DNA of 64,000 bases from Candidatus Woesearchaeota archaeon. GTDB lineage: Archaea > Nanobdellota > Nanobdellia > Woesearchaeales > ARS49. The stretch lies in NCBI GenBank assembly GCA_016215315.1, contig JACRKG010000040.1, positions 3,128 through 67,127 of the forward strand, given 5' to 3'. Below the pieces are notes generated by a model. It searched no databases. It worked only from the letters and a program-made list of their open reading frames with translations, and was not told the DNA's origin. Position 1 is the stretch's first letter; every line of letters starts with the position of its first letter. This document shows positions 15,801 through 55,346 of this stretch, one piece after another. The position numbers were made by a program, and so were the translations under genes.

Positions 15801-18800
15801 CTTTAACCTCTTCCTCGGAAAGACTTGAATAATTTATGGCTAATAAATCTTCGTAAAGCGCTAAAATTATTCCTTTTTCTTCATCGCTTGCAGTGTCTTT
15901 TATATCATATGATGTTTTGTAAAGTGCAAGAAGGAATTGCGTTTTTTCGCTTTCAGTCAAACTCGATTTGTTTTCCTTGAAAAATGCAAAAAGCTTCAAG
16001 GATGCTTCTCTGTTTAGTTCTGTTTTTTCTTCTTTGGTTAGAAAGTTTCCAAACAAAACTCGATCAATTAATTTGAATAATTCTGAGACTTTTTCAGTTG
16101 ATAAAGTTTTTTTGTTATTCTCAAAATGTTCCAATAGTTTTCTTGCAATTTTTTGTATTAATTGTCTTCCTTCTTCTGAAACGCGATTTTCTCCTGTAAC
16201 ATCAACTAATTCTCCTTTTTGTATTGTTTGGTATGTTGGCATTAAATTTACTGAAAGAATATCGTCTAGCATCTTTAAAAGTTCAAAATTGGAAAATAAT
16301 TCTTCTGTGTGATTATCAAAAAGTTCGTTTAGCGAGTTGACAATTCTTTGTGCTAATTGATCTTCATTTTCTATGTTAAATTTGTAAAGGACCGTGTTTA
16401 AGAGTTGTAGAATGCCTAAAGATTCGGATAATGTTAACTGATTTTTTTGTGTTTCATATTTGAGTGATAAATCTTCAAATATGAACATGATATTTTCAGG
16501 ATTCATTGCTTCTGGAGAAATATTTGTTATTGTTTCTAAAGCATATAAAATTAGGTGTGTCTCGCCTAAAGCTAATGTGTCTTTGTTGTCGATATAGATT
16601 CCTAAAATTGTTTCAGCAAGCAAGGACAAATTCATCTCGCTTAATTTAACACTTTCTTTAAATCTTAGAAGCTCTAAACCTTGAGCGATTGTTAGCAAAG
16701 ACGTAACCAATTCATTGAAAGGCTTATTTTTTTCACGAATAAAAACATTAATCAGATCTTTAACTGTTTTTGCTAAATCTGGTTCCACAACTTTTTCAGG
16801 GGGTGCTTCTGGAGCTGCACTTTTTAGTATTGAAGGCAAATTAAATGGTTCTCTTCCAATGCGTGTTGCCAAAAATGGAGAAATTGTTTCCAATTTATAA
16901 CTTGTCTTTTTTGGTTTGTACTTCTCGAGTTTTTCTAAATCTTTTTGCACTTCTGCATCTTTTTCATACGTGCTTCTCATTTCGAGTTTGTTAATGAAGT
17001 TGTCTAGTATTATCGTTTTTTGTTCTTCACCGAGTTCTGAGCCGGACAATATTTCTTCGAGAAGTTCAATGATTTCGTTTCTTAAATCTCTATTTTCTAT
17101 TTGATATAAAAGTTCTAAAGATTCTACAACTTCTTTTATTACTCCATCAGGGATATTTTTTATCAGAATTATCTCTTTTAGTGCTTCAAGTGTTCCCGAA
17201 GGAGGAACTTCATAATCAGTTACTACGCCGCTGTTTAAAATGAAATTTCTAATTAATTTAATTTTTTGTGCTTCACTTAAAGCAGGATCCTGCATTTGTT
17301 CTGTGAGTGTTGGAATAACCTCTAGTTTAATTTTTATTTTTTTCCACAAATAATAAAATGAGTCGATAACATCATCCACAATAGGTATTCTTTCACTAGT
17401 CAATATTCCCGGATTCTTTTTTTCAGGAACGACTTCTTGTCCTTTTAGTTTGTCAATGATCTTTTTAACTTTTTCAAAGTCTCCTTCTTGTAATGCTTTT
17501 GCTAGTTCTGCTTTTCTTAATTCTGGTAAAGAAAGTTGGGAGCTTACTGCAGGCATTCTTCCTGGACCACATTTTGCGCAATCAACACACGTACCTTTTT
17601 CATTCACGTATTTTGCTTGAGCTAAAGGACATTTTATGCATTTAACACTCTCCAGAACTGCGTTTAAGATGGCAACTGATGCTTTGACTCCTGATAAGGA
17701 AGCTCTAACATTTTGGTGTGCTGCATAATTAACAAAAGTATTACCAACCATTGCTTTAAAGATAGAACTTCTAATTTCTCCACCAATACTATTTGCGTGT
17801 GCTTTTGCTTGGTTAATTCCTTTTTTGAATTCTTCATCGTAAAATTTAACTAATTCAATTTCTTGCTTTGCCTTATCTAAATAATTATTAACTCCGGGGC
17901 ATGCTGCTTGAGGCATTGCTTCTAAGACAGAATTTAAAGAATCAACAAGCACTTGGTTGTTAACATTGTCGAATGTTTTAATGCTGTCTTGTAAATCATA
18001 TTTTAGATTTGTTGGAGTGATTTTGTTCATTGCTTTCTTTAAGTTTTCCAAATCCCTTGATTTTTGTTTTTCTCCTCTTTGTTTTGATTGTCTTATGGCA
18101 AAATCAGTGTCCCATCCTTCAGCGTCGAATAATTTAGAAATAAACTCTTCAGTGAATGGTGAAGCTCCATATACTAAGTGTTTGTAAGCATCATTCAAAT
18201 TGCCGTTTGCTTGATTGATTTGGTTAACGGCATTCATTAAAGCAATAATTGCAGAATCATCAGAACAAGTGCTCAAGTATTGTTTTGCTTTTTCTATTTC
18301 TGGGTCTAATGGAGGCAAGCATTGACTTATTTTGTTTATTTCACCAACAGCGTTGTTATCTTCTTGAACTTTTATTAATCCTTCAATGAAATTCATTACT
18401 CCGCCGTAAATTTGGTCAAATAACCATTTTTCAGGATCTTGCTGAGTTGCCTTGCCGGTTAAAAGATTCCTTGCGGAATCTTTATTTTTTTGTTCTTCTT
18501 CATATTCTTTTATTGCGTCAGCAATATCAATAATAATTGGTTTTTCTTTGTCTTTTTTCACGAAAGGCATTAGTGGCCATTGAGGTATTGGTGCAATAGG
18601 CCAAACGCCAGAACTTAAAATGTATTTACAATCGATTCCTTTTGGTGGCTGTGGTTTGTCCATGCAGTCGGGGCATTGTTTTAAGCAAACAAGTCCTTGT
18701 TGTAAGTTTTCTAAGAAATTCTGCGGGGAGTTTTCCTTCGGAAAACTAGCAACAGATTCAGTTGAAGGAACACAGTCCTGTTTTACTGGATCGCAACCGT

Positions 18801-19797
18801 TAGGGCAGTAAGTACTTCTTAATCTGTTAATTGTTCCTTCGCAACTAAAATGATTAAGAACTTTATCATTGCAATAATCGGGGTAACTTTCTGCTTTTGT
18901 TTGAGTGTTTCCTTTTTCATCGAGCCATACTTCTCCAATTTCGATATGTAATGGATTTTTTAGTTCAATGCAGTAATTGCTTTTTTTACTTTTATCGAAA
19001 CAATTATTTTCTAAAGAATTACAACCATACTGGCATTCAACAATTTCTGAACCTTTACAAGTAAACTTTAACAGTTGATTCCCTTGGCATTTATTTTCTT
19101 GTAATGTTTGTCTTCCGTCAGGGTAAGAATATTTAGCACCTTCAACAGTATCTTCACAACTTACTTGTCTGCAAGCTCCATCAAAACAAGAAAACTCAAC
19201 TTTCTTGCCTGGAGAAACTTCTATTTCAGGACAATAAATATTTTCCTCCTTAGAAAAACCTTTTTCATCACAAGAGTATTCTTTTAAAAAAAGATTTCCG
19301 TTTTCGTCAAATAAACATATATCTTCTTCACGAAATGGCTCGTTAGTAATAGTAACACCTGTGACCTGACCTGGCACGAGAGCAGGCATAATTTCATCTC
19401 CATCGCTATCAGTACATGTTGATTCTACTAGTTCTTGTGTTGCTTTTGGACAATCTTCAGGACAAGTGAGTTCGTTTTCTGCTGGTTTATTGTACACTCC
19501 TTCTCTATCACAGTATTTATCCCCGCAAAAGCCTGTAAGAATTAGTTCTTTTGGAGGAATTTTAGGAGGTAATGATGGTTGAGTGGGTTTTTCTTGAGGA
19601 ATTTCGTAGACTGGCTGTGGAGTGTAGTATTCAGTTGGTGGTTGTATTGTTTGTAATTCTTGGTTGGTGGGTGGTGGGTTGAAATCTGAAGGGAAATCAC
19701 TAACAGGTCTTCCTGTAATTGTGTAAGAAAGTGCGGTAGTTAAGGGTAGATTTATGAATAGTAAAATGACTAAAATAGCAAAAATTTTTTGATTCAT
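3823..19797 (-). CDS. Giant (5324 aa) secreted multidomain protein: signal peptide, Pro linker, Cys-rich repeats, helical/HEAT-like repeats, two transglutaminase-like domains, C-terminal HEEGH zincin-like domain
   Basis: Uninterrupted 15,975-nt ORF; SD GAGGT and TATA-like TTTATAAA upstream; GxxVCR..GHxW..DLDPT twice; HEEGH at 4411-4425. Confidence 0.9.
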   Translation of the reverse strand: MNQKIFAILVILLFINLPLTTALSYTITGRPVSDFPSDFNPPPTNQELQTIQPPTEYYTPQPVYEIPQEKPTQPSLPPKIPPKELILTGFCGDKYCDREGVYNKPAENELTCPEDCPKATQELVESTCTDSDGDEIMPALVPGQVTGVTITNEPFREEDICLFDENGNLFLKEYSCDEKGFSKEENIYCPEIEVSPGKKVEFSCFDGACRQVSCEDTVEGAKYSYPDGRQTLQENKCQGNQLLKFTCKGSEIVECQYGCNSLENNCFDKSKKSNYCIELKNPLHIEIGEVWLDEKGNTQTKAESYPDYCNDKVLNHFSCEGTINRLRSTYCPNGCDPVKQDCVPSTESVASFPKENSPQNFLENLQQGLVCLKQCPDCMDKPQPPKGIDCKYILSSGVWPIAPIPQWPLMPFVKKDKEKPIIIDIADAIKEYEEEQKNKDSARNLLTGKATQQDPEKWLFDQIYGGVMNFIEGLIKVQEDNNAVGEINKISQCLPPLDPEIEKAKQYLSTCSDDSAIIALMNAVNQINQANGNLNDAYKHLVYGASPFTEEFISKLFDAEGWDTDFAIRQSKQRGEKQKSRDLENLKKAMNKITPTNLKYDLQDSIKTFDNVNNQVLVDSLNSVLEAMPQAACPGVNNYLDKAKQEIELVKFYDEEFKKGINQAKAHANSIGGEIRSSIFKAMVGNTFVNYAAHQNVRASLSGVKASVAILNAVLESVKCIKCPLAQAKYVNEKGTCVDCAKCGPGRMPAVSSQLSLPELRKAELAKALQEGDFEKVKKIIDKLKGQEVVPEKKNPGILTSERIPIVDDVIDSFYYLWKKIKIKLEVIPTLTEQMQDPALSEAQKIKLIRNFILNSGVVTDYEVPPSGTLEALKEIILIKNIPDGVIKEVVESLELLYQIENRDLRNEIIELLEEILSGSELGEEQKTIILDNFINKLEMRSTYEKDAEVQKDLEKLEKYKPKKTSYKLETISPFLATRIGREPFNLPSILKSAAPEAPPEKVVEPDLAKTVKDLINVFIREKNKPFNELVTSLLTIAQGLELLRFKESVKLSEMNLSLLAETILGIYIDNKDTLALGETHLILYALETITNISPEAMNPENIMFIFEDLSLKYETQKNQLTLSESLGILQLLNTVLYKFNIENEDQLAQRIVNSLNELFDNHTEELFSNFELLKMLDDILSVNLMPTYQTIQKGELVDVTGENRVSEEGRQLIQKIARKLLEHFENNKKTLSTEKVSELFKLIDRVLFGNFLTKEEKTELNREASLKLFAFFKENKSSLTESEKTQFLLALYKTSYDIKDTASDEEKGIILALYEDLLAINYSSLSEEEVKDFLDNFLYYHLLVKDTQEETVLKQVTIKTLNYFLENINNLSPENLFRLSRHASSFINSFSGFNNDEKNEFADKFIQKINEYLEKHETLPDDQKQFVKERANNEFEKIKSIISLQKLFEEIKNKRAEKESVDKKTPGESARILKTQIGTVRKPVEVLKTEEVTKEEVKPVDEQKVKAELTGLINEIDEMINSFYNNPEEAKKLMDELINSGEFPALTEFDPELTDEEKLNTFVARRLLGRLQSYKDRISLLSNERDVQAYFEMLLNLYKRYNYFITSIIITEYETLEFTKCGDKECTKEPTRLKLTRSLGMDFHLDLLELAKLLSEEHRQNYLYDLFDLFTSISEIPLKAKEKYLLEVYSLMTEKTKEAYSSLIFTELHKLYQDRIKEGGLLLEIIKYLPDDRKKEKAIQILNELFSQLEIGLKERTLPNVSPGVAYLIYQLLEMTKFPPELTTKAYFLLKDFGFYYLLSALERGENLNVSELLKTLTTLLSHANINEKYSEGTLPSNIYSQQIDDQVTKLLEYIQEQINSLSRLELSTEQAQETYINLINALTEIKKITDLLPDSDSPYAPKPKLVNKTKQLLAQLVNLIVQKRIPPTQEFYDLISRIEDIGLRESLLKLLKLNFGEKIQASVEESPGEIPAGISEEGKREITKQIKVVKSEQKYPVQEIPSKQPTSILKSEQKGWFGRTWDWISGVKSPEEESSDAKKTVLDPDKTLEDKISALYVLAGPKGDETNFQDLKELLFNPNVSDEIKLRIIIHLYIFLNQQQFLKEHSELMELIKKELITPVTKGNEGAFIEILSWYDVNHLFELFKNPNVSDLNKLYLIKKIMKLRQVKADFAYSALDFLKTAIHKEENRKFLSWFIGLIINLQSFENIGSFAKFFKEEILKYELSPVERTEILEKILDSNRLNKYEKREIIKTFPEAESTLEYIIKQRPYDLDLYEINDQIIQILSENGKFEVLKKLLNIPELHKYYKILIAEQLWLAKELLDTPELIDLLISVVPDTNVPLEVRSSAIRALLNKEGTNKFKELLLNPQLSSYAKRTIIEALGTLAPSFFQEIILDQRIDLDIKKEALHRGAKGFSYPELMQIALNQELEKEIRDLAITNLINFDSSLLVKDLIRLPYEQRIAFLKEILFNKSGGVEYEQRLLLIVQDLSVVITEEDSIELYRLIIKNLGTELAIKILAKIGSNPALDILEELLKERIAREPFKNSSIKNQLTEVNLDVGTLILLINTFNYWSETGENANIRSNSYRARDYLLELLEKKVSTTEETELAKYYDLAKSFLLPKYFAAFINFVAFLPFEKSIEELRRIYYDENLIEQAVNNSGLSYEAIMEIIINTLSVNDEKAIKVLEEIANNPEEESSIRESARKIVEHFMSFEEVPTKEKKITSTEPPSEQDLRHLAFSEEQIKKESSLEEVSNGFFNLDQLIKITNSESFKEQVKQVLLKALREFIFDENLSEYFRTKNLHYLLKYGSGEDFKKVLQLVNNFSEDSAHYSLINNLFPEWTVDEENVKHRKQKVLEELNKHTSEVVRKAAKRELERLFNTKPKEVSSIQTKQPTELFYISDKPKINHFPIFKDGVAKGFVNTANEILKSEHAKAPSKGVSSETPPKEMQNFKDLLDYIAATLQIPFITPVGIFFPEGMPQKENFNYHVDRIIEWMENTGLMNADFLIELMELPLEEAVQKMKERIESILDDDLEVEVISWKIEKGHKEGTWKVPKEEGMSYEEFGQHAVGLRGAGTYASEGDSETSPEGETSTVDIKRSDSVEWGITSEGNLFFSFNEDYQEMIGLPEKSITTAGKGKTVILVIRSKNKQVKEKPKETSMRTEKPVFRTETPRILSMRKSVSVPPPILMQESVQPQKATLTEDVSNEKQFEEARKHLEQLFGEVESDYNIYLIEAINRFLNDNPDATSEEIIDKIQQIQSDDSIEVFEEGYKIPPSLEGMQAEEENFKHRQELNNEIELAFRRAAYGHESFFKVLARKILGLAQSMPFEDPYTVNEPNTKAFIEIVNNIKADNDLILVKKIYEFVTKILPIFERSDVMCRNFETLITQGKAVCRERSPLLVYALKLRGIDAKIITSNAVGEGAGHMWVTVTINVNNKLVEFDLDPTWYREFIPLHERFKGVEEERARETFEAIWKQYEGVQGKRYITEPEKASEIPKETSMRTEKPKEVSSTILKTEVPGFLAMQKPMGASIPILKQEEQKYTQTKPTLDEINRRCKEDKESLMREALERDFYKDILDLCDGKNLSEELTAKVVERLRSEYASNGSLFRHYIYQFGSKVFFSEIQKIYSEDKTKLSLSEIYFLVNFGYDDPKISESIASFLMNVSLDKELNENFRIEVQKLSINFFFYLRDYFEQKKENPDFTSVEENTYDNWAAELIKELDNKIDDVKYVLLASQIKHNPEGMLDFSVKFSVLTRNFGELSLSEILTLTEAVANHYKIFRNDSFVNNFLIQIESSEIPQENKDDIIRILITHLSLLNLQKETLPWFNPEALIESIAKNSSEAVKNYANTVLILMKKAEIVNFEENTVLIDQVLLFIKDNIALFGDKAISSEKIIDFIQQIQGEDWVTGLHSKSSLETVQDLEKRKYYSYGIFDIYKFSYEGSSFIGSLLRTLSKIITFNYEDYKNPYTPQEPLSAAFLDKIRHLESKNELELVMKIYSLAEDMVKVYELHSEFCKPMEEVLLKGNGVCRDFAALLYHALKERGIDVKYVDGFTEKITEGHIWVRVRITVENIPMEFDLDPTGYKEFFPLHPREFKIDNEQAMNYFKEQAFEQPVFLAMQKPMGAQIPILKQFAPQPPQVIPQQEEQKSNVEEQVNKLFDDFLMLLKQSPNEIYSISLFNAFNQIINQYLQDLRNNGNQEEQQKASLMIYKKFTQLRESKPEIFEVVKRNYLSLTTNLFNQMSPDDKKQFADQLFNSLLEQYKETGEQYIINNAIPSIMDFLVEKKIEKVKMILDLILTQIEGNEQNWNTYYLPELVRMLGYPAEATEKVYELVKKETSKWEYQDAGACYQMRARLITLLIHSQIENKNQEIQEINSMVVAKLKRLPENMLDRAHYGPLYNELMSDIEALPELQPLAVDLYELLMNIFFQRMKDNFQRPDDDSFKQMLYNELPSLLKLLPESMKQEKTEELFNILILLANGKRSLIEDSRQKIRQNKINELDQNKLGEYRRLLAALLNVVETLGFPKEKTETVYRLVKELFTIMSNTQVNWKMEFNEFEKMVKIIDVLGLDKHKEYPTILRTDNINSAESVGIGYMIGDWRTMIKVYIMNQIAMFGENNFFGIIEIAKLFTKISDFVLSIPPELEELNLDKKKEALSDVLNNILKAQNKFEKREIPEEFFVQLIKSINSLPLDEQTKKEFLLEYFKESLKELSTKEQTYSLLKYFLENLADEQKEFVKQSILEFIEKRYSSDNVIDMKAALYDLARIGFDDKPLLDDFFQKLSNDQILSFVSFEEFAQLFSFFNFELIMNKLVELKKQQEQTYSETTKAFIDVLYAVLNKKLNSAFEEGNKEFLTYVRFSIQSNEIELLGELIKSAWSDLSEEEKTKILEFSKQKYLPSNITQYVEFSNNLPDEVALQIIKELYENEQEFDKVINALTKERGLFENDAEGAYEYAIGIIIDELIKIKGENSVAFIKKIIKDNKDNSKIVERARKKLETLSEPRKTEDVKEGLKGQKEELKVIKKIKSTVKFPEIEQPAQKPVQKSAEILKSEEKDLTQEKTIEEKSSLEIPEPEVPSLELRPLFENFQKITEQRFEEKGGFQNLGESLAAYYFGQIFMVLNHEEGHAHVTEAYAAQYDLGINVGFGTLTTNKNMPDLGLFKGLTRQNARLTEKQYESITLGGFAASQELYCRVNEGLVQNDDGSFENRVGHWIAFTAGMDFPVHCLESYTSDVVNYGDIDYLIKQGYETDIKRALVADVIGKAPDLYWHFTKGLGMETSRPDWFSFRIPGTNFRLKISARAFIDPQNRIIAPYVEGEITSE

Positions 19798-47473: not shown

Positions 47474-48457
47474 TTACCACATTCCTTTAGGATAAGAGAA
47501 TCTTCTCAAATTTTCAAGAACTATTGAGAAAGAATATTGCTTTAAGTCTTCTTTGAAATATGCTCTTAAATCTGTGAATTGTACATCGAACTCTCTTTGA
47601 TCTTTAGCAATAATTAATATTTTGATATCATAATTTCCCAACAATCTTTCTGCATGAAGAATATTATTCTGTGTTTTCAAGAATTCAGAAATTTTTCTTC
47701 TTTTTTCATTAGAAAATTTGTTAATTTTTAAGAGCAAAACATAAGTTTGCAAACCAAACTTTTCATAATTAATAATTGCTTTAGCCTTAGTTATTACCCC
47801 TGTTGTTACAAGTTTGTTAAATCTTGAAGTGCAAGAGTCGATGCTTAAATTAGTAATTTGCGCTAGTTTAGCCATATTAATATTGGCTTTGTTTGACAAG
47901 GTGTTCAATATTCTTCTATCTTTTCCTTCCAAAACTATTTTTCCGTAATATCTCTCAGGCCATTTAGGTCTGTAATCCATATTTGCAAGAAAATTAAGTC
48001 TTTCATGCTTCATAGGAATTGTATTTGAAAGAATTTGGTTTTCAGCAATGTTATCTCCAAATTTATCATTTAACTCGTCGATAAAATCTGCCAAACCGAA
48101 CTTATCTCTGACTGCAACAGTAATAATAAAATCCCAATCACCGCTGCATCTATCAAGATATTTGATATTTTTGTGTGTTTTCAAAAAAGAACACATTTCA
48201 TTTAAAACTTCATTGGTTATTTTTTGTAATTTGAGTGTTATAACATACGTATCAAAATTGAGTTTTCTATTACTTATTACTAGATTTATTCCTGTGATAT
48301 ATTTTTCTTTTATCAGTTTTTTAATCCTATAAGCAACTAGCTCTCTGGAAAGATGGATTAATTTAGAAATTCTCGTCTGAGACAGCCTTCCATCTTCGTT
48401 AAGCAAATACAGTATTTGTTTATCCTTTTTATCTATGGATTTAACATTTTTAGGCAT
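47474..48457 (-). CDS. Tandem (double) Lrp/AsnC-family transcriptional regulator
   Basis: Two wHTH+RAM units: DKKDKQILYLLNEDGR...RIKKL...SGDWDF and KDRRILNTL...RFNKL...LGNYDI. Confidence 0.88.
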   Translation of the reverse strand: MPKNVKSIDKKDKQILYLLNEDGRLSQTRISKLIHLSRELVAYRIKKLIKEKYITGINLVISNRKLNFDTYVITLKLQKITNEVLNEMCSFLKTHKNIKYLDRCSGDWDFIITVAVRDKFGLADFIDELNDKFGDNIAENQILSNTIPMKHERLNFLANMDYRPKWPERYYGKIVLEGKDRRILNTLSNKANINMAKLAQITNLSIDSCTSRFNKLVTTGVITKAKAIINYEKFGLQTYVLLLKINKFSNEKRRKISEFLKTQNNILHAERLLGNYDIKILIIAKDQREFDVQFTDLRAYFKEDLKQYSFSIVLENLRRFSYPKGMW

Positions 48458-48524
48458 ATTATTTACTAAAATTGGACTAAATATATAAATTTTACCTAGA
48501 AAAGTAAAAAATAAAAACTTAAAT

Positions 48525-48532
48525 TTTATATT
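48525..48532 (+). promoter_or_regulatory. Candidate archaeal TATA box for the RNA array/Ro60 transcript
   Basis: TTTATATT about 26-30 nt upstream of the first stem-loop unit; an opposite-strand TATA at 48482-89 fits the Lrp gene. Confidence 0.5.
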
Positions 48533-48557
48533 AAAGCTTGCTTTTCTTTCTTTTTAT

Positions 48558-48620
48558 GAGGTGGAGGAAAGGTTACTCCGGCTTAAAACCGAACAATTAT
48601 TACCTTTTCTCTTAGTCCTC
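48558..48620 (+). ncRNA. Candidate minimal Y RNA, class 1 copy a
   Basis: GAGG/CCTC ends; 10-bp GAGGAAAGGT/ACCTTTTCTC stem; GTTACTCCGG and TAGTCCTC motifs shared with 48708-48792. Confidence 0.6.
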
Positions 48621-48634
48621 AAAACGCACACAAA

Positions 48635-48703
48635 ATGTGGGAATCATAGCCAGGTATCAAACGGATATCAAAACAATACTTGGTATCAGAGAATCCTATT
48701 CAT
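48635..48703 (+). ncRNA. Candidate structured RNA, class 2 copy a (boundaries uncertain)
   Basis: TGGGA/TCCTA and CCAGGTAT/ATACTTGG stems; GGTATCAAACGGAT and GAGAATCC motifs. Confidence 0.45.
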
Positions 48704-48707
48704 TTTC

Positions 48708-48792
48708 GAGGTGCTGGAGAAGTTACTTCGGTCAACGCGCTAATAACGCTAACGGTTCAAATCCGTGATCTTCTCCGATAGTCCTCGAGCAC
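48708..48792 (+). ncRNA. YrlA-like Y RNA with a tRNA T-arm mimic, class 1 copy b
   Basis: GTGCT/AGCAC and GGAGAAG/CTTCTCC stems; ACGG-TTCAAAT-CCGT T-arm; GCG-CTAATAA-CGC 7-nt-loop arm; directly upstream of Ro60. Confidence 0.72.
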
Positions 48793-48808
48793 AATCACCA
48801 GTCAAACT

Positions 48809-48872
48809 GACTTCAAAAGGTATCAAAGGATGTCCAGGGCTTCTTGAGAATCGCTTGATGTCACGTGAAGTC
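48809..48872 (+). ncRNA. Candidate structured RNA, class 2 copy b (boundaries uncertain)
   Basis: GACTTCA/TGAAGTC closing stem; GGTATCAAAGGAT and GAGAATCG motifs. Confidence 0.45.
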
Positions 48873-48886
48873 TTTTGATATCAAAA
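48873..48886. promoter_or_regulatory. Perfect 14-bp palindrome upstream of the Ro60 start
   Basis: TTTTGATATCAAAA. Confidence 0.4.
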
Positions 48887-48919
48887 AATTCCCCGCAATT
48901 AGTTGGGGTGGAGGTAAAA

Positions 48920-50485
48920 ATGAAAGCACAAATAAAAAAACTATTTGAAAAATATAGAATATACAAGGATGCAACACTAGTAAATTACGAAGGAAATGTT
49001 GCTTTTGAATTAAGCGATGAAGACTTGTTCATGCAAACATTACTAACAAACACTTGTTCAAATACTTTTTACGCTGATAAAGAAGAATTAGTGAAAGAAA
49101 GCATAGAAGTGCATAAAAAAATGCTTGCAAAAGATCCTAAATTTTACGCGCAAGCATTAGTTTACGCAAGAACTAAAGGATTCATGAGATTACAACCAGT
49201 GTTAGGACTAGTTTTCTTGTCAACAATAACAGATAAGAGTTATTTCAGAAGTACTTTCAAAAGAGTAGTTCTTACACCTAGCGATTTAGAATCTTTCTTA
49301 GATTTGTGCAGATCAAAATCTGTAAGACAAGGTCTTGGAAGAAGCATAAAAACTGAAATAATCAGTTATCTAAAAGAAAAATTAACTGAATACTACGCAA
49401 TAAAGTACAAGAAAGCACTAAAAGATGCAGTGAAATTAAGCAGGCCAAATGCTAAAGCATTTGGTGACGTTAAAAAAGCAATTGTCGAATACATAATGAG
49501 AGGAGAACTTACTGAAGATCTTAAGCAAGCAAAAGCAGTGGAAAAATTAAAGACAATGAATCCCGCAAATGATGAAACAGAAATTATAAAATTAATAGAA
49601 GAAGGAAGACTACCTTACGAAGCAGTAGTTGGAGCAATAACACCAACACAAAAAATCTGGGAAGCACTATTGTACCAAATGCCAATATTTGCAACGCTAA
49701 GACAAATTAACACAATGGCTAGAAATAAAGTATTTGAGTCAGAAAAAGCAGTAAATTATGTTTGCGAGAAATTACAACACGTTGAAGAAAGCAAAATATT
49801 ACCTTTTAGATTTTATACAGCGATAAATAGTTTAGATATTTCAGTGCCTAACAAAGTAAAGGATGCAATAGTTGATGCTCTAGAAAAAAGCTTTGTCAAC
49901 ATGCCAGAAATAAAAGGAAAAACATGCATAGCTCCTGATGTAAGTGGAAGTATGTGTTCAGGAAAACCTAGAAATGTAGACATAGCAGGAATATTCAGTG
50001 CCGCATTAATGAAGAAAACAAAAGATTGTATGATATTACCAGTAGACACAGCAATACACCCACACACTTGCAGCACTAGAGACAGTATAATGAGTAACGC
50101 AGAAAAGTTAGCAAAACTAGGTGGCGGAGGTACAGAATTAGACCTTCCCATAATTTACTTGCTAGACAATAAAATAAAAGTAGACAACTACATATGCATT
50201 ACTGACAGCGAGGAATGGTACAGTGATAAAAGATACTTTTGGAACACAAAATCAAGCACAGATAGAGGTTTTTATCAAGCACTAAGAGACTACAAAAATA
50301 AAATCAATCCAAACCTGAAAGTATTTTACATAAGAATAGCACCTTACAAGCATAGCACTGCTCCAGCAAAAGAACCAAACTTGTACAACATAGAAGGCTG
50401 GTCAAACACAGTACTAGACTTTATATCAACAATCAGTAACTTAGGAAAAGACCAAATCGATGCAGTGAAGGCAGTGGAGATATAG
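48920..50485 (+). CDS. rsr: Ro60/TROVE-domain RNA-binding protein with C-terminal vWA (MIDAS) domain
   Basis: NTFYA..EEL, DPKFYAQALVYARTKGFMR, GLGRSIK, WEALLYQMP..ATLRQ, ILPFRF, DVSGSM, TDSE, IEGWS; GGAGGT SD before ATG 48920 (521 aa). Confidence 0.92.
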   Translation: MKAQIKKLFEKYRIYKDATLVNYEGNVAFELSDEDLFMQTLLTNTCSNTFYADKEELVKESIEVHKKMLAKDPKFYAQALVYARTKGFMRLQPVLGLVFLSTITDKSYFRSTFKRVVLTPSDLESFLDLCRSKSVRQGLGRSIKTEIISYLKEKLTEYYAIKYKKALKDAVKLSRPNAKAFGDVKKAIVEYIMRGELTEDLKQAKAVEKLKTMNPANDETEIIKLIEEGRLPYEAVVGAITPTQKIWEALLYQMPIFATLRQINTMARNKVFESEKAVNYVCEKLQHVEESKILPFRFYTAINSLDISVPNKVKDAIVDALEKSFVNMPEIKGKTCIAPDVSGSMCSGKPRNVDIAGIFSAALMKKTKDCMILPVDTAIHPHTCSTRDSIMSNAEKLAKLGGGGTELDLPIIYLLDNKIKVDNYICITDSEEWYSDKRYFWNTKSSTDRGFYQALRDYKNKINPNLKVFYIRIAPYKHSTAPAKEPNLYNIEGWSNTVLDFISTISNLGKDQIDAVKAVEI

Positions 50486-50513: not shown

Positions 50514-50537
50514 TGACTAACATTGTTTTTTTATTTT

Positions 50538-50639
50538 TTATCTATTATTTTTGTCCAATATGTTACTAATTTCTTTAAAGAATCTTCTTGCTCTTTCAAG
50601 CGAAGTATTTGCTTTATTTTTTTGAGTATCATCCAACAT
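50538..50639 (-). pseudogene. Probable HEPN remnant (33 aa, internal deletion)
   Basis: MLDDTQKNKANTSLERARRFFKEISNILDKNNR*; overlaps the MNT stop; resembles the terminal HEPN helix but lacks Rx4-6H. Confidence 0.45.
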
Positions 50640-51243
50640 AGTATTGCCTCAATATATTTAAGAAATATTCGGCGCCATATAAAACTACATGGTTTTTTAA
50701 TATTTCATTACCTACATTAAATTTATTTGGTGTTTTCCACATTTCAAGCATGCCTTTTTCTGTAACAATATTAATATCACAATTATAACCAACTAAACTA
50801 TCTTTTACTAAGCTTTCGAACTTCGCATAATTGTACTCTTCAGGAATAATAAACAGTAAATCAATATCTGAAGTTTCATTTGGTTTATTTGCTTGACTTC
50901 CAAATAGTATGCAAATAAAATTTTTATTCATTCCTTTGATGCTCTTTCTTACAACATTAAGAGTAGTATTAATACAAACATCATCCGCTCTCTCCATTTC
51001 AACAAAAACTTGATTAGTGCTAGGTTTTTTCAAATTTGGCCTTATAACTTTGCTATTTCCTACTTTTTCAATAATAACGTCTTCTTTCTTAGCCAAACTA
51101 TGCACGCTTTGATGAACTTGAAAATAGCCTCGTCTTAAAATTCTAGTTATATCACTTATCGTGAGATTTTTGCTTAAGTCTTTAAATAACAGCTTCAATG
51201 TCCTTAATTCATCTTTTTTTAGCATATATTTTGAAAATAACAA
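50629..51243 (-). CDS. wHTH + minimal nucleotidyltransferase (MNT) domain protein
   Basis: ILFGSQA...SDIDLLFI motif; N-terminal wHTH. Confidence 0.85.
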   Translation of the reverse strand: MLFSKYMLKKDELRTLKLLFKDLSKNLTISDITRILRRGYFQVHQSVHSLAKKEDVIIEKVGNSKVIRPNLKKPSTNQVFVEMERADDVCINTTLNVVRKSIKGMNKNFICILFGSQANKPNETSDIDLLFIIPEEYNYAKFESLVKDSLVGYNCDINIVTEKGMLEMWKTPNKFNVGNEILKNHVVLYGAEYFLNILRQYYVG

Positions 51244-51330: not shown

Positions 51331-52485
51331 TTAGCTAGTTGTATACTTTCTAATAGCTCTCAAAATAGTTTCTGTGTCTACGGCAGGCATGTGTTTCTCT
51401 TGTCTTTCTGAGTTAATGTTTGTATTTAATTCTTCAAATAACATATTGATTAGAGGTTCAGAAATTTTTGTTCTTGTTGAATGATCAGCATAGTCTACGG
51501 CAATACAATTATCTGGCAAAAAATCATGCATTACGGTATAATAAACTTTCCAGAGAAGTCTTGAAAGTTCCTTGTTAATTTCTGGCAAAATTTCTCCTCT
51601 TAGCTCTGCCGCCCATTCAACAACCCCCAACTGACTTCCACCCAAACTATACATCATTGGTAATGATAATTCAACAGATTCTTTTCTTAGGAAAAGATTA
51701 TTTGCTTTAATATCTATCTGTAATCTTGAACCTTTCTTTAAAGCTTCTTGCTCTAGATGTCTGGCAATAAATTCCTTATCTCGGGATATTTTACCTTGAA
51801 ATGGATTATATTTAGTCTCTCCATGTCCAAGAATAAGAGCTCCATGAGCTGCAATTAAGCCTCCTTCTTTTAAATTTCGGTATGCTTGTTTTAAAACATT
51901 GTATCTCATGTAATCTGGGTCTATATAGCATAAGGCCATGTCAGAAAATATTAAATCAAATCCGTTCAAAGTTTCTTCATGTAAAATTTGATCAAGATGT
52001 CTCATATCCCCTACAAGATATTTTATTCCTCTCGTTGCAAGCAGGTCTCTTGTTGAATGTCTTTTTTGCTCACTAAAGTAATTGTCACGTAGATCTGCAA
52101 TAGATAGGCCAACCAGCACTAAATTATTTTTAACTGCTTCAATACCATATCTTTTTTCTAATTCATGATACAAATCCAGTAAAAATTCTGCTCGTCCACA
52201 TCCAAGATCTAGAATTCTAAACTTCTCACCGCGTTCAAGACAACCATTAAAACCTTCTATAACAATATCTAATAGTGGTTTTTCTTTCGGATTATCTGAG
52301 GTAGATAAATCAATTGGAAAATTCATGAAATCTTCACTGTACTTATCAAGTCCTCTATCTATTACATACTTAACTTGCTCAGAATCTCCATATCTGCGTT
52401 GATCATTAGCGCCAGGGTTACCTAGGTTGATCATGTATCTGAGAAATTCACTTTCCGATTCTAACATATCTAATAAATTTGTCAT
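51331..52485 (-). CDS. Class I SAM-dependent methyltransferase
   Basis: RILDLGCGRA, GDM, FDLIFS, LKEGG. Confidence 0.8.
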   Translation of the reverse strand: MTNLLDMLESESEFLRYMINLGNPGANDQRRYGDSEQVKYVIDRGLDKYSEDFMNFPIDLSTSDNPKEKPLLDIVIEGFNGCLERGEKFRILDLGCGRAEFLLDLYHELEKRYGIEAVKNNLVLVGLSIADLRDNYFSEQKRHSTRDLLATRGIKYLVGDMRHLDQILHEETLNGFDLIFSDMALCYIDPDYMRYNVLKQAYRNLKEGGLIAAHGALILGHGETKYNPFQGKISRDKEFIARHLEQEALKKGSRLQIDIKANNLFLRKESVELSLPMMYSLGGSQLGVVEWAAELRGEILPEINKELSRLLWKVYYTVMHDFLPDNCIAVDYADHSTRTKISEPLINMLFEELNTNINSERQEKHMPAVDTETILRAIRKYTTS

Positions 52486-52494
52486 TTTATTTTT

Positions 52495-53400
52495 TTATTT
52501 GTATCCCAATGCTTTGACTTGTAAAACTTCAGGACACCACGCAAGTACTCGTTCACTTTTAATTTCAAAAACTTTTCCATGCATTTCAAATCTTCCTTGT
52601 TCATCTGCTAAACTTTTAAGCATTCCCATAAATGGAATAAATTTTGAAATATATTTCCCGAAAACTCCTTGGTACACTTCACCAGCTCTTTTTGATGTTT
52701 CTGGACAAGTGTAAACAAAATCTTCAAGACCTAATCTTTCTTGTAAAATGACTTCGTTGCTACTTGTTTTCAAATTGTTTGTTCCATAGAATAAATTGCC
52801 GTCTGGCGCTAAAACTCTTAAAGCTTCATTAAACGCTCTGTTTTGATCCCAAAAATACATTGATGCTTCAAAACAAGTTACTAAATCAAACTTATCAGTC
52901 CACTCTTCAGGCAATACTTCTGCTATAGACAATCTAAAATTAATTGTATCTCTTACGTTTTGTTTTTGATTAGAAACTGCATGACCAACTATAGGAGTTC
53001 CTAATTTGTCTTGAATTTCTCTTAAAAAAACTGCTTGTCCACAACCAATATCTAACAATTCTACATTATCTTTCTTTTTTAATTTAGCATTAATTATTTC
53101 CACTAGAGGAGCGCCTGCCATCTTAGAGTACTCTTCTATTCCTCTATCCCAAGTACCGCTTTCTTCAAGAAAAAATCGCTGAGTTTCTTCATCAGACATT
53201 TTTGCAAGCTCTTCCGAATTTACTTTTTCATAACCACTGATAAGCGTTGCAGTCCAATAAATAGCAAGTTCTCTTAGTTCTTCCTCGCTTAATTTTCGAC
53301 TTCCAAGTGATTTTAGTAATTGTTTTTGCAAATAACTCTGCATTACATCCACAAGCCTATTCATTTCTGTTTTTGGAAGTTGATAAAAATGGGTTGTCAT
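52495..53400 (-). CDS. Class I SAM-dependent methyltransferase
   Basis: LLDIGCGQA, FDLVTC, RVLAPDG. Confidence 0.82.
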   Translation of the reverse strand: MTTHFYQLPKTEMNRLVDVMQSYLQKQLLKSLGSRKLSEEELRELAIYWTATLISGYEKVNSEELAKMSDEETQRFFLEESGTWDRGIEEYSKMAGAPLVEIINAKLKKKDNVELLDIGCGQAVFLREIQDKLGTPIVGHAVSNQKQNVRDTINFRLSIAEVLPEEWTDKFDLVTCFEASMYFWDQNRAFNEALRVLAPDGNLFYGTNNLKTSSNEVILQERLGLEDFVYTCPETSKRAGEVYQGVFGKYISKFIPFMGMLKSLADEQGRFEMHGKVFEIKSERVLAWCPEVLQVKALGYK

Positions 53401-53975: not shown

Positions 53976-55346
53976 TCACAAAGTTGTTGTGAATTCAGAT
54001 AGCAAAAACAACCATGCAGGAATATAATTTATTGTTGTTTTTTTTATTTTTTCAACTTTAAAATAATCTTTCGTGATGATAATTCCTTCATCTAGATTGT
54101 TATCTTCTATGAAGCTAAAGAATTCTTTATTCACTTCAGGTTGTGAAGAATATTTTACTTCAACAGGAATTATTTTTTCATTTAAAAAAACGAAGTCTAT
54201 TTCTCCATTTCTTCTAAAATAAAATGTTTTTCCTCGCAAAGCAAGATGCACTCCAATTAGATTTTCCATTATAAATCCTTCATTTTCAAATTTGATTTCG
54301 TAGTCTTTAACAATTGCATTCCTTAATCCTTGGTCTATGCATAAATATTTTTTTTTAGATTTAATCTGCTCTTTCACACTTTTTGCAAATTTATGAATCT
54401 CTATTATGAGATAAGAACTTTTGAGGTATTCAATATAATTAAGAAGAATGCTCCTATGAAGACCTGCTATTTCATTGATACTCTCATAACTTAAAATTTT
54501 AGATTGATTTTCCATGATAAAAGTAAAAATGTTTTCAAGGGTTTTAGGACTTCGTATGTTAAACTGGTTAGATACATCTTCATATATTGCTTTTTTTGGA
54601 ATGTCATTTCTGATTGTTTCAAACCATTTGCTGGTTTCTTTTATTGAAAACCACTCGGGAAATCCTCCAACCAAAACATAGCTGCGAAATAAATCAATAA
54701 CCGTTTCTCTTATTTTACTAACTCCAATTGAATCCATTTTTTTAATTTCTTTAATCGTGAAAAGCTTAATTTCAACGTTATTAAATTTTAGAAATTCGTG
54801 AAATGAAAGCGGATAAATAGTAAAGTCAAATGATCTTCCTCTTAAATATAAATTAGCATCTCTTTGAAGAACCAGGCTTGAAGAACCAGTTATTACAAAC
54901 TTTACTTTTTCAGAATATTTGTCAAAAAAAGATTTCATCCATACGTGCCAGTCTTTGCAAGTATGCACTTCATCAAAAAAAACATATTTTTTTCCTTCAA
55001 CTGCAATATTCTCAAGAAAAAAATCAAGAATATCTTTGAATAAAGAATCTGTATGAATAGCCAAAACAGGATCATCAAAAGAGTAATAAAGTATATTTCT
55101 TGGATTAATTTTTTTAAGCAAAAAAGAGATTGTTTGCTTTATTAATGTTGTTTTTCCTGAACGTCTAGGCCCTAAAATTTGAATAATTCTTCTCGTTTCA
55201 AGTTCTTCAGTTAGTTTACTAAATATATCTCGTTCAACAAATTTAGATAAATCCAATTTGTCACTTATCCACCAAGGATTTAATTTTTCGAGTTCTTTTC
55301 CAAATAATGCTAAGTTTTTTATCATATTATACATCTCATTGTTCAA
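53976..55346 (-). CDS. AAA+ ATPase (AAA_14 + DUF4143 type)
   Basis: NPWW, GPRRSGKTT, FFDEVH, TGSSS, GGFPE, DQGLRN, EIDFV, PVEVK. Confidence 0.9.
   Translation of the reverse strand: MNNEMYNMIKNLALFGKELEKLNPWWISDKLDLSKFVERDIFSKLTEELETRRIIQILGPRRSGKTTLIKQTISFLLKKINPRNILYYSFDDPVLAIHTDSLFKDILDFFLENIAVEGKKYVFFDEVHTCKDWHVWMKSFFDKYSEKVKFVITGSSSLVLQRDANLYLRGRSFDFTIYPLSFHEFLKFNNVEIKLFTIKEIKKMDSIGVSKIRETVIDLFRSYVLVGGFPEWFSIKETSKWFETIRNDIPKKAIYEDVSNQFNIRSPKTLENIFTFIMENQSKILSYESINEIAGLHRSILLNYIEYLKSSYLIIEIHKFAKSVKEQIKSKKKYLCIDQGLRNAIVKDYEIKFENEGFIMENLIGVHLALRGKTFYFRRNGEIDFVFLNEKIIPVEVKYSSQPEVNKEFFSFIEDNNLDEGIIITKDYFKVEKIKKTTINYIPAWLFLLSEFTTTL

What the first reader, a model, noticed from the sequence alone, without database searches (positions are those of the whole stretch)
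47474..50485. Ro60 (TROVE-vWA) locus with a multi-unit Y RNA array in a DPANN-like archaeon
Seen: a complete 521-aa Ro60 gene preceded by ~315 nt of highly structured non-coding DNA (four stem-loops), a TATA element placed to start transcription at the first unit, and a divergent tandem Lrp regulator. Established: bacterial Ro60 (Rsr) genes usually lie next to their Y RNAs, and in Deinococcus a Y RNA tethers Rsr to PNPase; the system is characterised in animals and bacteria. Inference: this is an archaeal Ro60-Y RNA system with several RNA partners. Archaea lack PNPase and no rtcB is in the window, so the effector partner may be different (exosome or unknown nuclease). To my knowledge this arrangement is not characterised in DPANN.
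Basis: partly seen in the sequence, partly recalled or inferred. Interest (0 to 1): 0.92.

Follow-up and report, generated by a model that had tools for sequence, protein, structure and literature searches.

The report
Archaeal Ro60 gene with Y RNAs
A tiny (DPANN, Woesearchaeota-like) archaeon carries a full Ro60 RNA-quality-control protein gene preceded by two small structured RNAs of the Y RNA type, a protein-RNA partnership so far studied only in animals, bacteria and phages.

Summary
Window 48920-50485(+) encodes a complete 521-aa Ro60 (TROVE + Ro60-type vWA, intact MIDAS; the AF2 model matches solved Ro60 rings at TM 0.75).

The 462-nt upstream spacer holds a GC-rich block (42-46% GC against 19-27% in other spacers). 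Two of its elements, A (48557-48621) and B (48707-48787), are real Y-RNA-like units:
- Each has a 5-bp outer helix, an invariant GGUG with a small bulge, a variable 8-bp inner helix, a near-invariant UUACUUCG, then a variable apical insert.
- Unit B carries a tRNA T-arm mimic.
- A covariance model built without the window's sequences finds only these two units in the 64 kb (E 6e-8 and 2e-5).
- In about 20 other loci it hits only next to Ro60 homologues, on the same strand.
- The stems covary strongly.

The other two "stem-loops" (48632-48706, 48801-48879) fold moderately well. They are missing from the nearest relative and are not Y-type by the model, so the array has two units, not four.

The tandem Lrp gene, the TATA box and the DPANN origin are all supported.

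This is a new, archaeal member of a known kind. The layout mirrors Mycobacterium smegmatis and Thermus phage phiLo. The effector in an archaeon, which should lack PNPase, is unknown. Expression and binding are untested.

The parts
47474..48457 (-). Tandem (two-module) Lrp/AsnC-family transcription regulator, divergent from the Y RNA/Ro60 unit
   Evidence: Pfam HTH_24 and HTH_AsnC-type (2 stretches each) plus AsnC_trans_reg. NCBIfam Lrp/AsnC/LysM models hit both halves. It is 46% identical over its full length to the gene at the same divergent position in L001.
48482..48489 (-). Putative TATA box of the Lrp gene (TTTATATA on the minus strand), about 25-30 nt from its ATG; implies a leaderless mRNA
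   Evidence: Read from the sequence. It forms one arm of inverted repeat I4, 48483-48494 / 48520-48531. Inference only.
48524..48531 (+). Putative TATA box (TTTTATAT) of the Y RNA-Ro60 transcription unit
   Evidence: It ends 26 nt before the first base of unit A. The same TTTTATATT lies about 34 nt before the GAGG of the first unit in L001, against 35 nt in the window, and TTTATATAT lies about 30 nt before the first unit in L007. Function inferred.
48557..48621 (+). Y-RNA-like unit A (65 nt): outer helix UGAGG/CCUCA, GGUG, inner helix AGGAAAGG/CCUUUUCU, UUACUCCG, and a 30-nt apical loop with a small CGG/CCG hairpin
   Evidence: Leave-out model R2: 31.0 bits, E 1.8e-5. R1: 33.2 bits. MFE fold matches, z -1.85. 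Parse.
48632..48706 (+). Spacer hairpin C, nature unverified; contains three GRTRTCA heptamers
   Evidence: Fold z -2.29 on the plus strand and +0.43 on the minus strand. No counterpart in L001. Not hit by R1 or R2. Heptamer cluster.
48707..48787 (+). Y-RNA-like unit B (81 nt): outer helix CGAGG/CCUCG, GGUG, inner helix UGGAGAAG/CUUCUCCG, UUACUUCG, and an apical insert holding a 3-bp hairpin with a 7-nt loop plus a T-arm mimic
   Evidence: Leave-out model R2: 40.9 bits, E 5.8e-8. R1: 43.6 bits. Fold.
48752..48766 (+). tRNA T-arm mimic inside unit B (ACGG-UUCAAAU-CCGU)
   Evidence: GGTTCRANYCC occurs once in the 64 kb, which holds no tRNA gene, against 0.14 expected. The same kind of T-arm is present in 9 of 29 parsed units from other Ro60 loci.
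48801..48879 (+). Spacer hairpin D, a long imperfect hairpin (about 27 bp, GCUU loop), nature unverified; contains GRTRTCA heptamers
   Evidence: Fold z -2.11 on the plus strand and +0.85 on the minus strand. No counterpart in L001. Not hit by R1 or R2. Partly homologous to the spacer after unit A.
48910..48915 (+). Shine-Dalgarno-like GGAGGU, 4 nt before the Ro60 ATG
   Evidence: Read from the sequence. GAGGTG also sits before the start codon in L001, L002, L003 and L007.
48920..50485 (+). Ro60 (TROVE + Ro60-type vWA), 521 aa, MIDAS D340/S342/S344/T405/D429
50526..50539 (+). T7 + T6 runs after the Ro60 stop codon, a likely archaeal oligo-T terminator. No run of 5 or more T lies between 48557 and 48919.
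   Evidence: Read from the sequence. Inference.

Best explanation
The locus is a Ro60-Y RNA ribonucleoprotein cassette in a Woesearchaeota-like DPANN archaeon.

Transcription. One unit starts at the TATA box at 48524-48531 and runs through two Y-type RNAs (A, 65 nt; B, 81 nt) into the Ro60 mRNA. It ends at the oligo-T runs after 50485. The two RNAs are probably cut out of this leader, as in M. smegmatis.

RNA structure. Each RNA closes on itself through a short outer helix, an invariant GGUG with a 2-nt 3' bulge, and a variable 8-bp inner helix.

Binding and function (inferred). This basal module most likely docks on the outer surface of the Ro60 ring, as the GGUCCGA / GNCGAA stems of known Y RNAs do. 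The conserved UUACUUCG plus the variable apical part (a tRNA T-arm mimic in B) would gate the Ro60 cavity and/or recruit a partner enzyme. In an archaeon that partner is probably the PNPase-like exosome (S1/KH cap) or a tRNA-handling/RNA-repair enzyme. The divergent tandem Lrp regulator shares the promoter region and probably controls expression.

Shown: protein identity; RNA conservation, covariation and co-location with Ro60; cassette synteny with L001.

Inferred: transcription start, co-transcription and processing, Ro60 binding, the effector, and regulation by Lrp.
For: Protein:
- Pfam TROVE and vWA_Ro60 above their cut-offs.
- Full-length matches to human and Xenopus Ro60, Rsr and phiLo Ro60.
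- AF2 and Foldseek TM about 0.75 to Ro60 rings.
- MIDAS residues invariant.

RNA:
- The signature GGUG-N9-10-UUACUUCG ... complement ... CC recurs next to Ro60 homologues in L001, L002, L003, L007, L014-L016, L019, L031, L041 and L046.
- 25 distinct inner 5' strands occur among 29 parsed units.
- 96.6% of cells pair, against 68% in shuffles and 48-61% with partners slid. There are 108 double-change cells against 33, and the covariation score is 0.80 against 0.23.
- RNAalifold on real sequences recovers both helices, with 10 of 14 pairs showing compensatory changes.
- Model R2, built without the window, finds only units B and A in the 64 kb (E 5.8e-8 and 1.8e-5).
- All 26 R1 hits at E<=0.1 across 88 Ro60 loci, including 10 untrained hits in 8 loci, lie on the Ro60 strand within about 1 kb of the gene.
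- The last units of the L003 and L002 arrays hit Rfam YrlA at 42.5 and 40.7 bits. This ties the class to known bacterial Y RNAs.
- T-arm mimic in unit B.

Cassette: the Lrp-units-Ro60 order and the TATA spacing are conserved in L001.

Precedent: in M. smegmatis, YrlA and YrlB lie upstream of rsr and come from one precursor (PMC4201824).
Against: - There are no expression, processing or binding data.
- The window units fail every Rfam Y RNA/YrlA model.
- They lack the literal GNCGAAN0-1G / GGUCCGA motif.
- Unit A (65 nt) is below the usual 80-130 nt.
- Only one independent archaeal chromosomal relative with its upstream region exists (L001 = L067).
- The 3' partners used for the covariation table were chosen by complementarity. 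Swapped or shuffled 5' strands still parse in 23-33% of trials, so that table overstates the case. The leave-out model and the co-location evidence do not share this bias.
- NCBIfam Rsr scores only 70 bits against a 900-bit cut-off.
- No effector gene is nearby.
Confidence: 0.75

Rival explanations
1. The units act only in cis. They would be Ro60-binding operator structures in the 5' leader of the Ro60 mRNA, giving autoregulation of translation or stability. On this reading they do not accumulate as free trans-acting Y RNAs.
For: There is no run of 5 or more T and no clear second promoter between unit A and the ATG. In L001 the second unit ends only about 35 nt before the ATG, so co-transcription is almost forced. 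The Ro60 ribosome-binding region (UGGGGUGGAGGUAA) resembles the 5' strand of unit A (repeat D4).
Against: In L041 the units lie downstream of Ro60. Arrays of 5-9 different units with diverse apical modules, including tRNA-like ones, are hard to explain as operators. In bacteria, co-transcribed Y RNAs are processed into stable Ro60-bound RNAs (PMC4201824). The two roles do not exclude each other.
Confidence: 0.12
2. The cassette is a recently acquired piece of a virus or mobile element. Its role would be in host-virus conflict, either hijacking RNA decay or repairing RNA after nuclease attack, not housekeeping RNA quality control.
For: - Distribution is patchy. Relatives with 93% identical DHS exist, yet the nearest Ro60 is only 62% identical.
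- Two relatives with 74-75% identical S19e have no Ro60 next to S19e.
- The next-closest Ro60s (43-46%) sit in contigs dense with small ORFs, alongside Cas4, RNA ligase and Band-7 genes.
- HGTV-1 pairs a TROVE protein with an RlaP RNA-repair nucleotidyltransferase.
- The window neighbourhood holds a Pol-beta nucleotidyltransferase and a PDC-S01 candidate-defence ATPase.
Against: Ro60 matches nothing in PADLOC. The window shows no integrase or viral structural genes near the cassette. GC content is like the rest of the contig. The cassette sits 1.2 kb from ribosomal protein genes. This rival concerns origin and role, not the molecular nature of the parts.
Confidence: 0.25
3. The upstream structures are chance hairpins or an unrelated non-coding RNA, or the 60-aa ORF 48561-48743 is a real gene. 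On any of these readings they have no relation to Ro60.
For: There is no Rfam hit. Fold z-scores are only about -2.
Against: The leave-out model gives E-values of 6e-8 and 2e-5. Hits lie strictly beside Ro60 on the same strand across loci. Stems show compensatory changes. Unit lengths differ between loci by amounts that are not multiples of three, which does not fit a coding region.
Confidence: 0.03

Closest known systems
Mycobacterium smegmatis Rsr with YrlA and YrlB (Chen et al. 2014, PMC4201824)
   Same: Two Y RNAs are encoded upstream of the Ro60 gene on the same strand and come from a single precursor. One RNA carries tRNA-like features, and YrlB has a possible T-arm.
   Different: The host here is an archaeon with a TATA promoter. 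The 5' motif is GGUG, not GNCGAAN0-1G. Neither window unit has the full permuted tRNA domain (T arm, capped acceptor stem, D arm).
Bacterial YrlA family (Rfam RF02553; structure 6cu1, 10.1101/312249)
   Same: Both have a basal stem formed by the 5' and 3' ends, an internal loop, then an effector module. Sister arrays (L003 3599-3730, L002 3505-3633) align end to end with RF02553 at 41-43 bits.
   Different: The window units give no RF02553 hit even at E<=10. The sister hits fall below the 69-bit gathering score. The near-invariant UUACUUCG is not part of the published YrlA description.
Deinococcus radiodurans Rsr-Yrn1-PNPase (RYPER)
   Same: Both have a Ro60 ring with Y RNAs encoded upstream. 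Yrn1 carries a T stem-loop, and unit B's order (small hairpin, then T-arm) follows the non-permuted orientation that PMC4201824 contrasts with YrlA.
   Different: Archaea are not known to have PNPase (established knowledge). Any tethered nuclease would have to be another enzyme, such as the exosome.
Thermus phage phiLo Ro60 with Yrl1 and Yrl2 (PMC12135203; PDB 9KOP, 9L5Y)
   Same: Two Y-like RNAs lie directly upstream of the Ro60 gene. The protein matches by fold (Foldseek TM 0.64-0.75).
   Different: That system belongs to a bacterial virus. Its motif is CGAA in an internal bulge, and it binds host PNPase.
TROVE/Ro60 proteins of archaeal viruses and elements (HGTV-1 gp129; Asgard 'Nidhogg' viruses, 10.1101/2021.07.29.454249; Borgs, PMC11208441)
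   Same: These are Ro60-family proteins in the archaeal world.
   Different: They are viral or extrachromosomal, and HGTV-1 gp129 is only 27% identical. Those papers describe no Y RNAs. My model and Rfam found none beside HGTV-1 gp129.

Membership tests
Ro60 / TROVE-vWA protein | TROVE domain | tested here: met
   PF05731: 46.2 bits against a cut-off of 23.
Ro60 / TROVE-vWA protein | Ro60-type vWA domain with a MIDAS motif (DxSxS...T...D) | tested here: met
   PF25045: 55.8 bits against a cut-off of 27.7. D340, S342, S344, T405 and D429 are invariant in 14 homologues.
Ro60 / TROVE-vWA protein | Ring of HEAT-like repeats closed by the vWA domain | tested here: met
   AF2 model with pLDDT 83.4 and pTM 0.78. 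The top 13 Foldseek PDB hits are all Ro60/Rsr/phiLo Ro60, with TM 0.64-0.76 over the full length.
Ro60 / TROVE-vWA protein | Orthology to bacterial Rsr (NCBIfam NF041674 equivalog cut-off) | tested here: not met
   70 bits against a cut-off of 900. It is a homologue, not an Rsr equivalog.
Ro60 / TROVE-vWA protein | Binds Y RNA on the outer surface and misfolded RNA 3' ends in the cavity | not testable with these tools
   Needs biochemistry.
Y RNA (general) | Encoded next to the Ro60 gene | tested here: met
   The units lie 133-363 nt upstream on the same strand. The same holds for every model hit in other loci.
Y RNA (general) | 5' and 3' ends pair into a stem with a bulge or internal loop, supported by covariation | tested here: met
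   Caveat on how partners were selected.
Y RNA (general) | Conserved 5'-strand Ro60 recognition motif (GGUCCGA in animals, GNCGAAN0-1G in bacteria; PMC4201824) | tested here: not met
   The invariant motif here is GGUG (GAGGUGG in A, GAGGUGC in B). It aligns with the ggCga segment of RF02553 but does not match it literally.
Y RNA (general) | Length 80-130 nt | tested here: inconclusive
   Predicted unit A is 65 nt and unit B is 81 nt. The true ends are unknown.
Y RNA (general) | Bound by Ro60 and dependent on it for stability | not testable with these tools
   Needs immunoprecipitation or EMSA.
YrlA (tRNA-like Y RNA, RF02553) | Permuted tRNA domain: T arm, capped acceptor stem, D arm | tested here: not met
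   Unit B has only a T-arm mimic and unit A has none. ARAGORN finds nothing.
YrlA (tRNA-like Y RNA, RF02553) | Score at or above the Rfam gathering threshold | tested here: not met
   No hit in the window at gathering, and none in the spacer at E<=10. Sister arrays score 41-43 bits against 69.
Lrp/AsnC regulator | N-terminal HTH_AsnC plus a C-terminal RAM/AsnC ligand domain | tested here: met
   Two HTH stretches and an AsnC_trans_reg domain. NCBIfam Lrp-type models hit residues 3-130 and 177-316.

The most novel reading that the evidence does not exclude
This would be the first cellular archaeal Ro60-Y RNA particle. Its RNAs would belong to a Y RNA subclass that current Rfam models do not capture, defined by GGUG, a bulged helix and UUACUUCG. 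That subclass would span DPANN archaea, virus-like elements with arrays of up to 8-9 units, and Chloroflexi/CPR bacteria. In archaea the particle would couple Ro60 to a non-PNPase effector, such as the exosome cap, aRNase J or a tRNA/RNA-repair enzyme. Hairpins C and D, rich in GRTRTCA, would be further non-canonical partner RNAs or regulator sites.
Probability: 0.3. Interest if true: 0.72.

Novelty: new member of a known kind. Interest (0 to 1): 0.58.

Why it matters
Ro60-Y RNA particles are a conserved but poorly understood RNA surveillance system and a major human autoantigen. Their mechanism is understood best where a Y RNA tethers Ro60 to PNPase.

An archaeal cellular example with identifiable Y RNAs asks what Ro60 is coupled to when PNPase is absent. 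It offers small RNAs of 65 and 81 nt and one protein for reconstitution. It also gives a sequence signature and a covariance model that find Y-type RNAs which Rfam currently misses, next to Ro60 genes in archaea, viruses, Chloroflexi and CPR.

It further suggests that Ro60 cassettes move between viruses and very small symbiotic cells.

Tried and rejected
- Rfam at gathering threshold on the whole window, and at E<=10 on the spacer. Only chance-level hits to snoRNA, sRNA41 and tmRNA fragments appeared, none to Y RNA or YrlA.
- ARAGORN finds no tRNA or tmRNA in the window.
- MAFFT alignment of full-length units put the 3' strands out of register. I replaced it with a structure-guided 42-nt core alignment and by Infernal alignment.
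- Filters-off cmsearch on the spacer returned only fragmentary low scores and no additional unit in hairpins C or D.
- The metagenome scan for close relatives gave only L067, which is the same sequence as L001. L008, labelled a Methanosarcinales MAG and 59% identical, is cut at the 5' end and has no upstream region.
- HGTV-1 has no Y-like element near its TROVE gene.
- The downstream nucleotidyltransferase is not an orthologue of the one in L001 or of HGTV-1 RlaP.
- The sigma-70 promoter and intrinsic-terminator scan was uninformative, as expected for an archaeon.
- The 60-aa ORF 48561-48743 and the TTG-extended 536-aa Ro60 start were rejected. The RNA covariation, the Shine-Dalgarno plus ATG at 48920, and the homologue N-termini all argue against them.
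- The reviews by Sim et al. 2020 and Boccitto & Wolin 2019, and Burroughs & Aravind 2016, are not held in the library. Whether they mention archaeal Ro60 could not be checked.


Full report
**What is there**

The stretch 47474-50485 contains three things:
- a 327-aa gene on the minus strand (47474-48457);
- a 462-nt spacer;
- a 521-aa gene on the plus strand (ATG 48920, stop 50485), preceded by GGAGGT at 48910-48915.

The 521-aa protein is a Ro60:
- It matches Pfam TROVE (46 bits) and the Ro60-specific vWA domain (56 bits), both above their cut-offs.
- It aligns over nearly its full length with human and Xenopus Ro60, D. radiodurans Rsr and Thermus phage phiLo Ro60.
- An AlphaFold2 model (pLDDT 83, pTM 0.78) has as its 13 best PDB matches only Ro60-family rings, at TM 0.64-0.76.
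- The MIDAS residues D340, S342, S344, T405 and D429 are invariant among 14 homologues.
- It is not an equivalog of bacterial Rsr (70 bits against NCBIfam's 900-bit cut-off).

The minus-strand gene is a tandem Lrp/AsnC regulator with two HTH modules.

**Whose genome**

The window carries the archaeal ribosomal proteins L31e, L39e and S19e only 1.2 kb from the cassette, plus deoxyhypusine synthase. The best named relatives of DHS and S19e are Candidatus Woesearchaeota (74% and 66-68%). Diapherotrites, Nanoarchaeota and Micrarchaeota follow. "DPANN-like archaeon" is therefore supported.

Ro60 is patchy in this lineage. Organisms with 93% identical DHS are in the database, but the nearest Ro60 is only 62% identical (P0002). 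Two relatives with 74-75% identical S19e have other genes where the window has the cassette.

**The non-coding block**

Positions 48557 to about 48880 reach 42-46% GC, in a genome whose other spacers are 19-27% GC. The plus strand folds better than shuffles (366 nt, z -1.96) and the minus strand does not (z +0.26). Folded piecewise, four plus-strand stem-loops appear, each with z between -1.7 and -2.3:
- A, 48557-48621;
- C, 48632-48706;
- B, 48707-48787;
- D, 48801-48879.

Energy alone is weak evidence, so I turned to comparison.

**Comparative evidence**

The closest Ro60 locus is L001, from a groundwater metagenome. It has the same cassette: a divergent tandem Lrp (46% identical), a TTTTATATT element, two short units, then Ro60.

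Next-closest Ro60 genes (43-46% identical) sit behind longer arrays: 3 units in L002, 5 in L007, and 8-9 in L003/L004.

Every unit has the same anatomy:
- a 5-bp outer helix ending in GG/CC;
- an invariant U-G, which in the archaeal/virus-like group can pair with a conserved A-Y opposite a 2-nt bulge;
- an 8-bp inner helix of free sequence;
- a near-invariant (G)UUACUUCG;
- a variable insert of 17-107 nt;
- the return strands.

Chloroflexi and some viral Ro60 loci carry the same signature.

The helices covary:
- 25 distinct inner 5' strands occur among 29 parsed units.
- 96.6% of cells are paired, against 68% after shuffling partners and 48-61% with partners slid.
- There are 108 cells with changes on both sides, against 33.

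A caveat applies. I chose the 3' partners by complementarity, and swapped or shuffled 5' strands can still be "parsed" in 23-33% of trials. That table is therefore inflated.

Three lines of evidence are free of this bias:
1. A covariance model built without the window's sequences (R2) finds exactly two hits in the whole 64 kb, at E<=10. They are 48707-48787 (40.9 bits, E 5.8e-8) and 48557-48621 (31.0 bits, E 1.8e-5).
2. Across 88 Ro60-containing loci (552 kb, both strands), all 26 model hits at E<=0.1 lie on the Ro60 strand within about 1 kb of the gene. These include 10 hits in 8 loci that were not used for training. Most sit 50-300 nt upstream.
3. RNAalifold, run on the Infernal alignment of real sequences, predicts the same two helices, with compensatory changes at 10 of 14 pairs.

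**Link to known Y RNAs**

The last units of the L003 and L002 arrays contain a T arm, a capped acceptor-like hairpin and a D arm in the permuted order of bacterial YrlA. They align end to end with Rfam RF02553 at 42.5 and 40.7 bits (E 8.5e-8 and 1.4e-5), below the 69-bit gathering score. In that alignment GGUG occupies the place of the ggCga of YrlA. That segment is the GNCGAAN0-1G motif, which Chen et al. relate to the GGUCCGA contacted by Xenopus Ro60 (PMC4201824).

Nine of 29 units carry a 4-bp T-arm with a UUCRANY loop. [quoted passage not shown]

In the window, unit B has such a T-arm (48752-48766). It is the only GGTTCRANYCC in 64 kb, in a window without tRNA genes, against 0.14 expected. 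It is preceded by a 3-bp hairpin with a 7-nt loop. Unit A has only a small apical hairpin.

Neither window unit is a YrlA in the strict sense, and no Rfam model sees them. They are best described as YrlB/Yrn-like short Y RNAs of a divergent subclass.

**Hairpins C and D**

They are not detected by the models and have no counterpart in L001, where the spacers are 12 and about 35 nt. The segment after unit A is partly homologous to the segment after unit B, so A+C and B+D look like a duplicated module. The homologous bases take different structural roles in the two predicted folds.

The two hairpins contain a striking cluster of the heptamer GRTRTCA: 7 of the window's 19 matches fall within 230 nt. 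This is unexplained. [quoted passage not shown] That is reminiscent of the "long hairpin" Y RNAs (Yrn2, YrlB) in PMC4201824, but the resemblance is not evidence. I count two supported Y-type units, not four.

**Transcription (inferred from sequence)**

- TTTTATAT at 48524-48531 ends 26 nt before unit A.
- Its inverted copy on the other strand (48482-48489) lies about 25-30 nt from the Lrp ATG. This gives two divergent archaeal promoters, the Lrp one leaderless.
- The same TATA-to-unit spacing occurs in L001 and L007.
- Between 48557 and 48919 there is no run of five or more T. T7 and T6 runs follow the Ro60 stop codon (50526-50539).
- In L001 the last unit ends about 35 nt before the ATG.

The simplest reading is one transcript, unit A-unit B-Ro60, from which the RNAs are excised. 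M. smegmatis YrlA and YrlB are made this way (PMC4201824).

**Mechanism**

By analogy with solved and characterised systems, the basal bulged stem docks on the Ro60 ring. The apical module either gates the cavity or recruits a partner.

PNPase is not known in archaea. The archaeal exosome has the same ring architecture, with S1/KH cap proteins, and is the obvious candidate. tRNA-handling or RNA-repair enzymes are alternatives suggested by the T-arm and by the genes in sister loci: RNA ligase in L003, Band-7 in L002, and the RlaP nucleotidyltransferase next to the TROVE gene of haloarchaeal virus HGTV-1.

The window itself has no rtcB, ligase or exosome gene. It has only a generic Pol-beta nucleotidyltransferase downstream, which is not orthologous to those elsewhere. 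All of this paragraph is inference.

**Novelty**

Already described:
- Ro60 with adjacent Y RNAs, in more than 250 bacteria and phages (PMC4201824).
- Two upstream Y-like RNAs in phage phiLo (PMC12135203).
- Ro60/TROVE proteins in Asgard viruses, Borgs and HGTV-1 (10.1101/2021.07.29.454249; PMC11208441).

I found no report of Y RNAs in any archaeon or archaeal virus, nor of Ro60 in DPANN.

The finding is a new, archaeal chromosomal member of a known kind, with a variant recognition motif shared with bacterial and virus-like relatives. It is interesting mainly because it poses the effector question in a PNPase-free lineage, and because the signature and model recover Y-type RNAs that Rfam misses.

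Noticed in passing
window 48653-48883: The heptamer GRTRTCA (GGTATCA / GATATCA / GATGTCA) occurs 7 times in 230 nt, inside spacer hairpins C and D. The whole 64 kb has only 19 matches, so about 0.07 would be expected here. It is absent from the equivalent spacer of L001. It could be regulator (Lrp?) sites, an RNA motif, or a relic of duplication.
   Followed up: partly
L003 2820-3730 (= L004, L005, L006); L007 930-1536; L002 3297-3629: Ro60 homologues 43-46% identical sit behind arrays of 8-9, 5 and 3 Y-like units, each with a different apical insert. In L002, L003 and L007 most units are preceded by a conserved CATAATC-type spacer motif. The contigs are dense in small ORFs (virus- or element-like) and carry Cas4, RNA ligase, Band-7 and a thermosome gene.
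   Followed up: partly
L016 1510-2940, L020 1520-2880, L031 2210-2840 (Chloroflexi MAGs): Upstream of these bacterial Ro60 genes, true tRNA genes and tRNA-like hits are interleaved with GGUG...UUACUUCG units. One tRNA-model hit (L016 1622-1690) lies inside a unit's stem. None reaches the Rfam YrlA gathering score.
   Followed up: no
L096 (Halovirus HGTV-1, NC_021328 62277-70571): The TROVE-domain gp129 lies three genes from gp126, which matches Pfam RlaP (the RNA-repair-pathway Pol-beta nucleotidyltransferase). No Y-like RNA was found nearby with my model or Rfam.
   Followed up: partly
window 53976-55346 (-): An AAA_14/DUF4143 ATPase matches the PADLOC candidate defence family PDC-S01 at 264 bits. 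Together with two SAM methyltransferases (51331-53400) and a Pol-beta nucleotidyltransferase (50629-51243), the region downstream of Ro60 looks like variable, accessory DNA.
   Followed up: no
window 3823-19797 (-): A single 5324-aa ORF, of the giant-protein kind often seen in DPANN/CPR genomes. Not examined.
   Followed up: no
window 48904-48917 vs 48557-48570: The Ro60 ribosome-binding region (TGGGGTGGAGGTAA) is 86% identical to the 5' strand of unit A (TGAGGTGGAGGAAA). GAGGTG also precedes the Ro60 start codon in L001, L002, L003 and L007. It may be a coincidence of Shine-Dalgarno-like sequence, or a hint of cis regulation.
   Followed up: no
L007 1440-1545: The 3' outer-helix strand of the last two units (CCTTAC) can alternatively pair with a GTAAGG just downstream, giving small hairpins that overlap the unit end.
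   Followed up: no
L008 (CAZXRI010000074.1): A Ro60 59% identical to the window's sits on a 6-kb contig binned as 'uncultured Methanosarcinales archaeon'. It is followed by a 195-aa minus-strand ORF, of the same length and position as the one downstream of Ro60 in L001. The two ORFs were not compared, and neither has a Pfam hit. The contig may come from a different organism than its bin label says.
   Followed up: no
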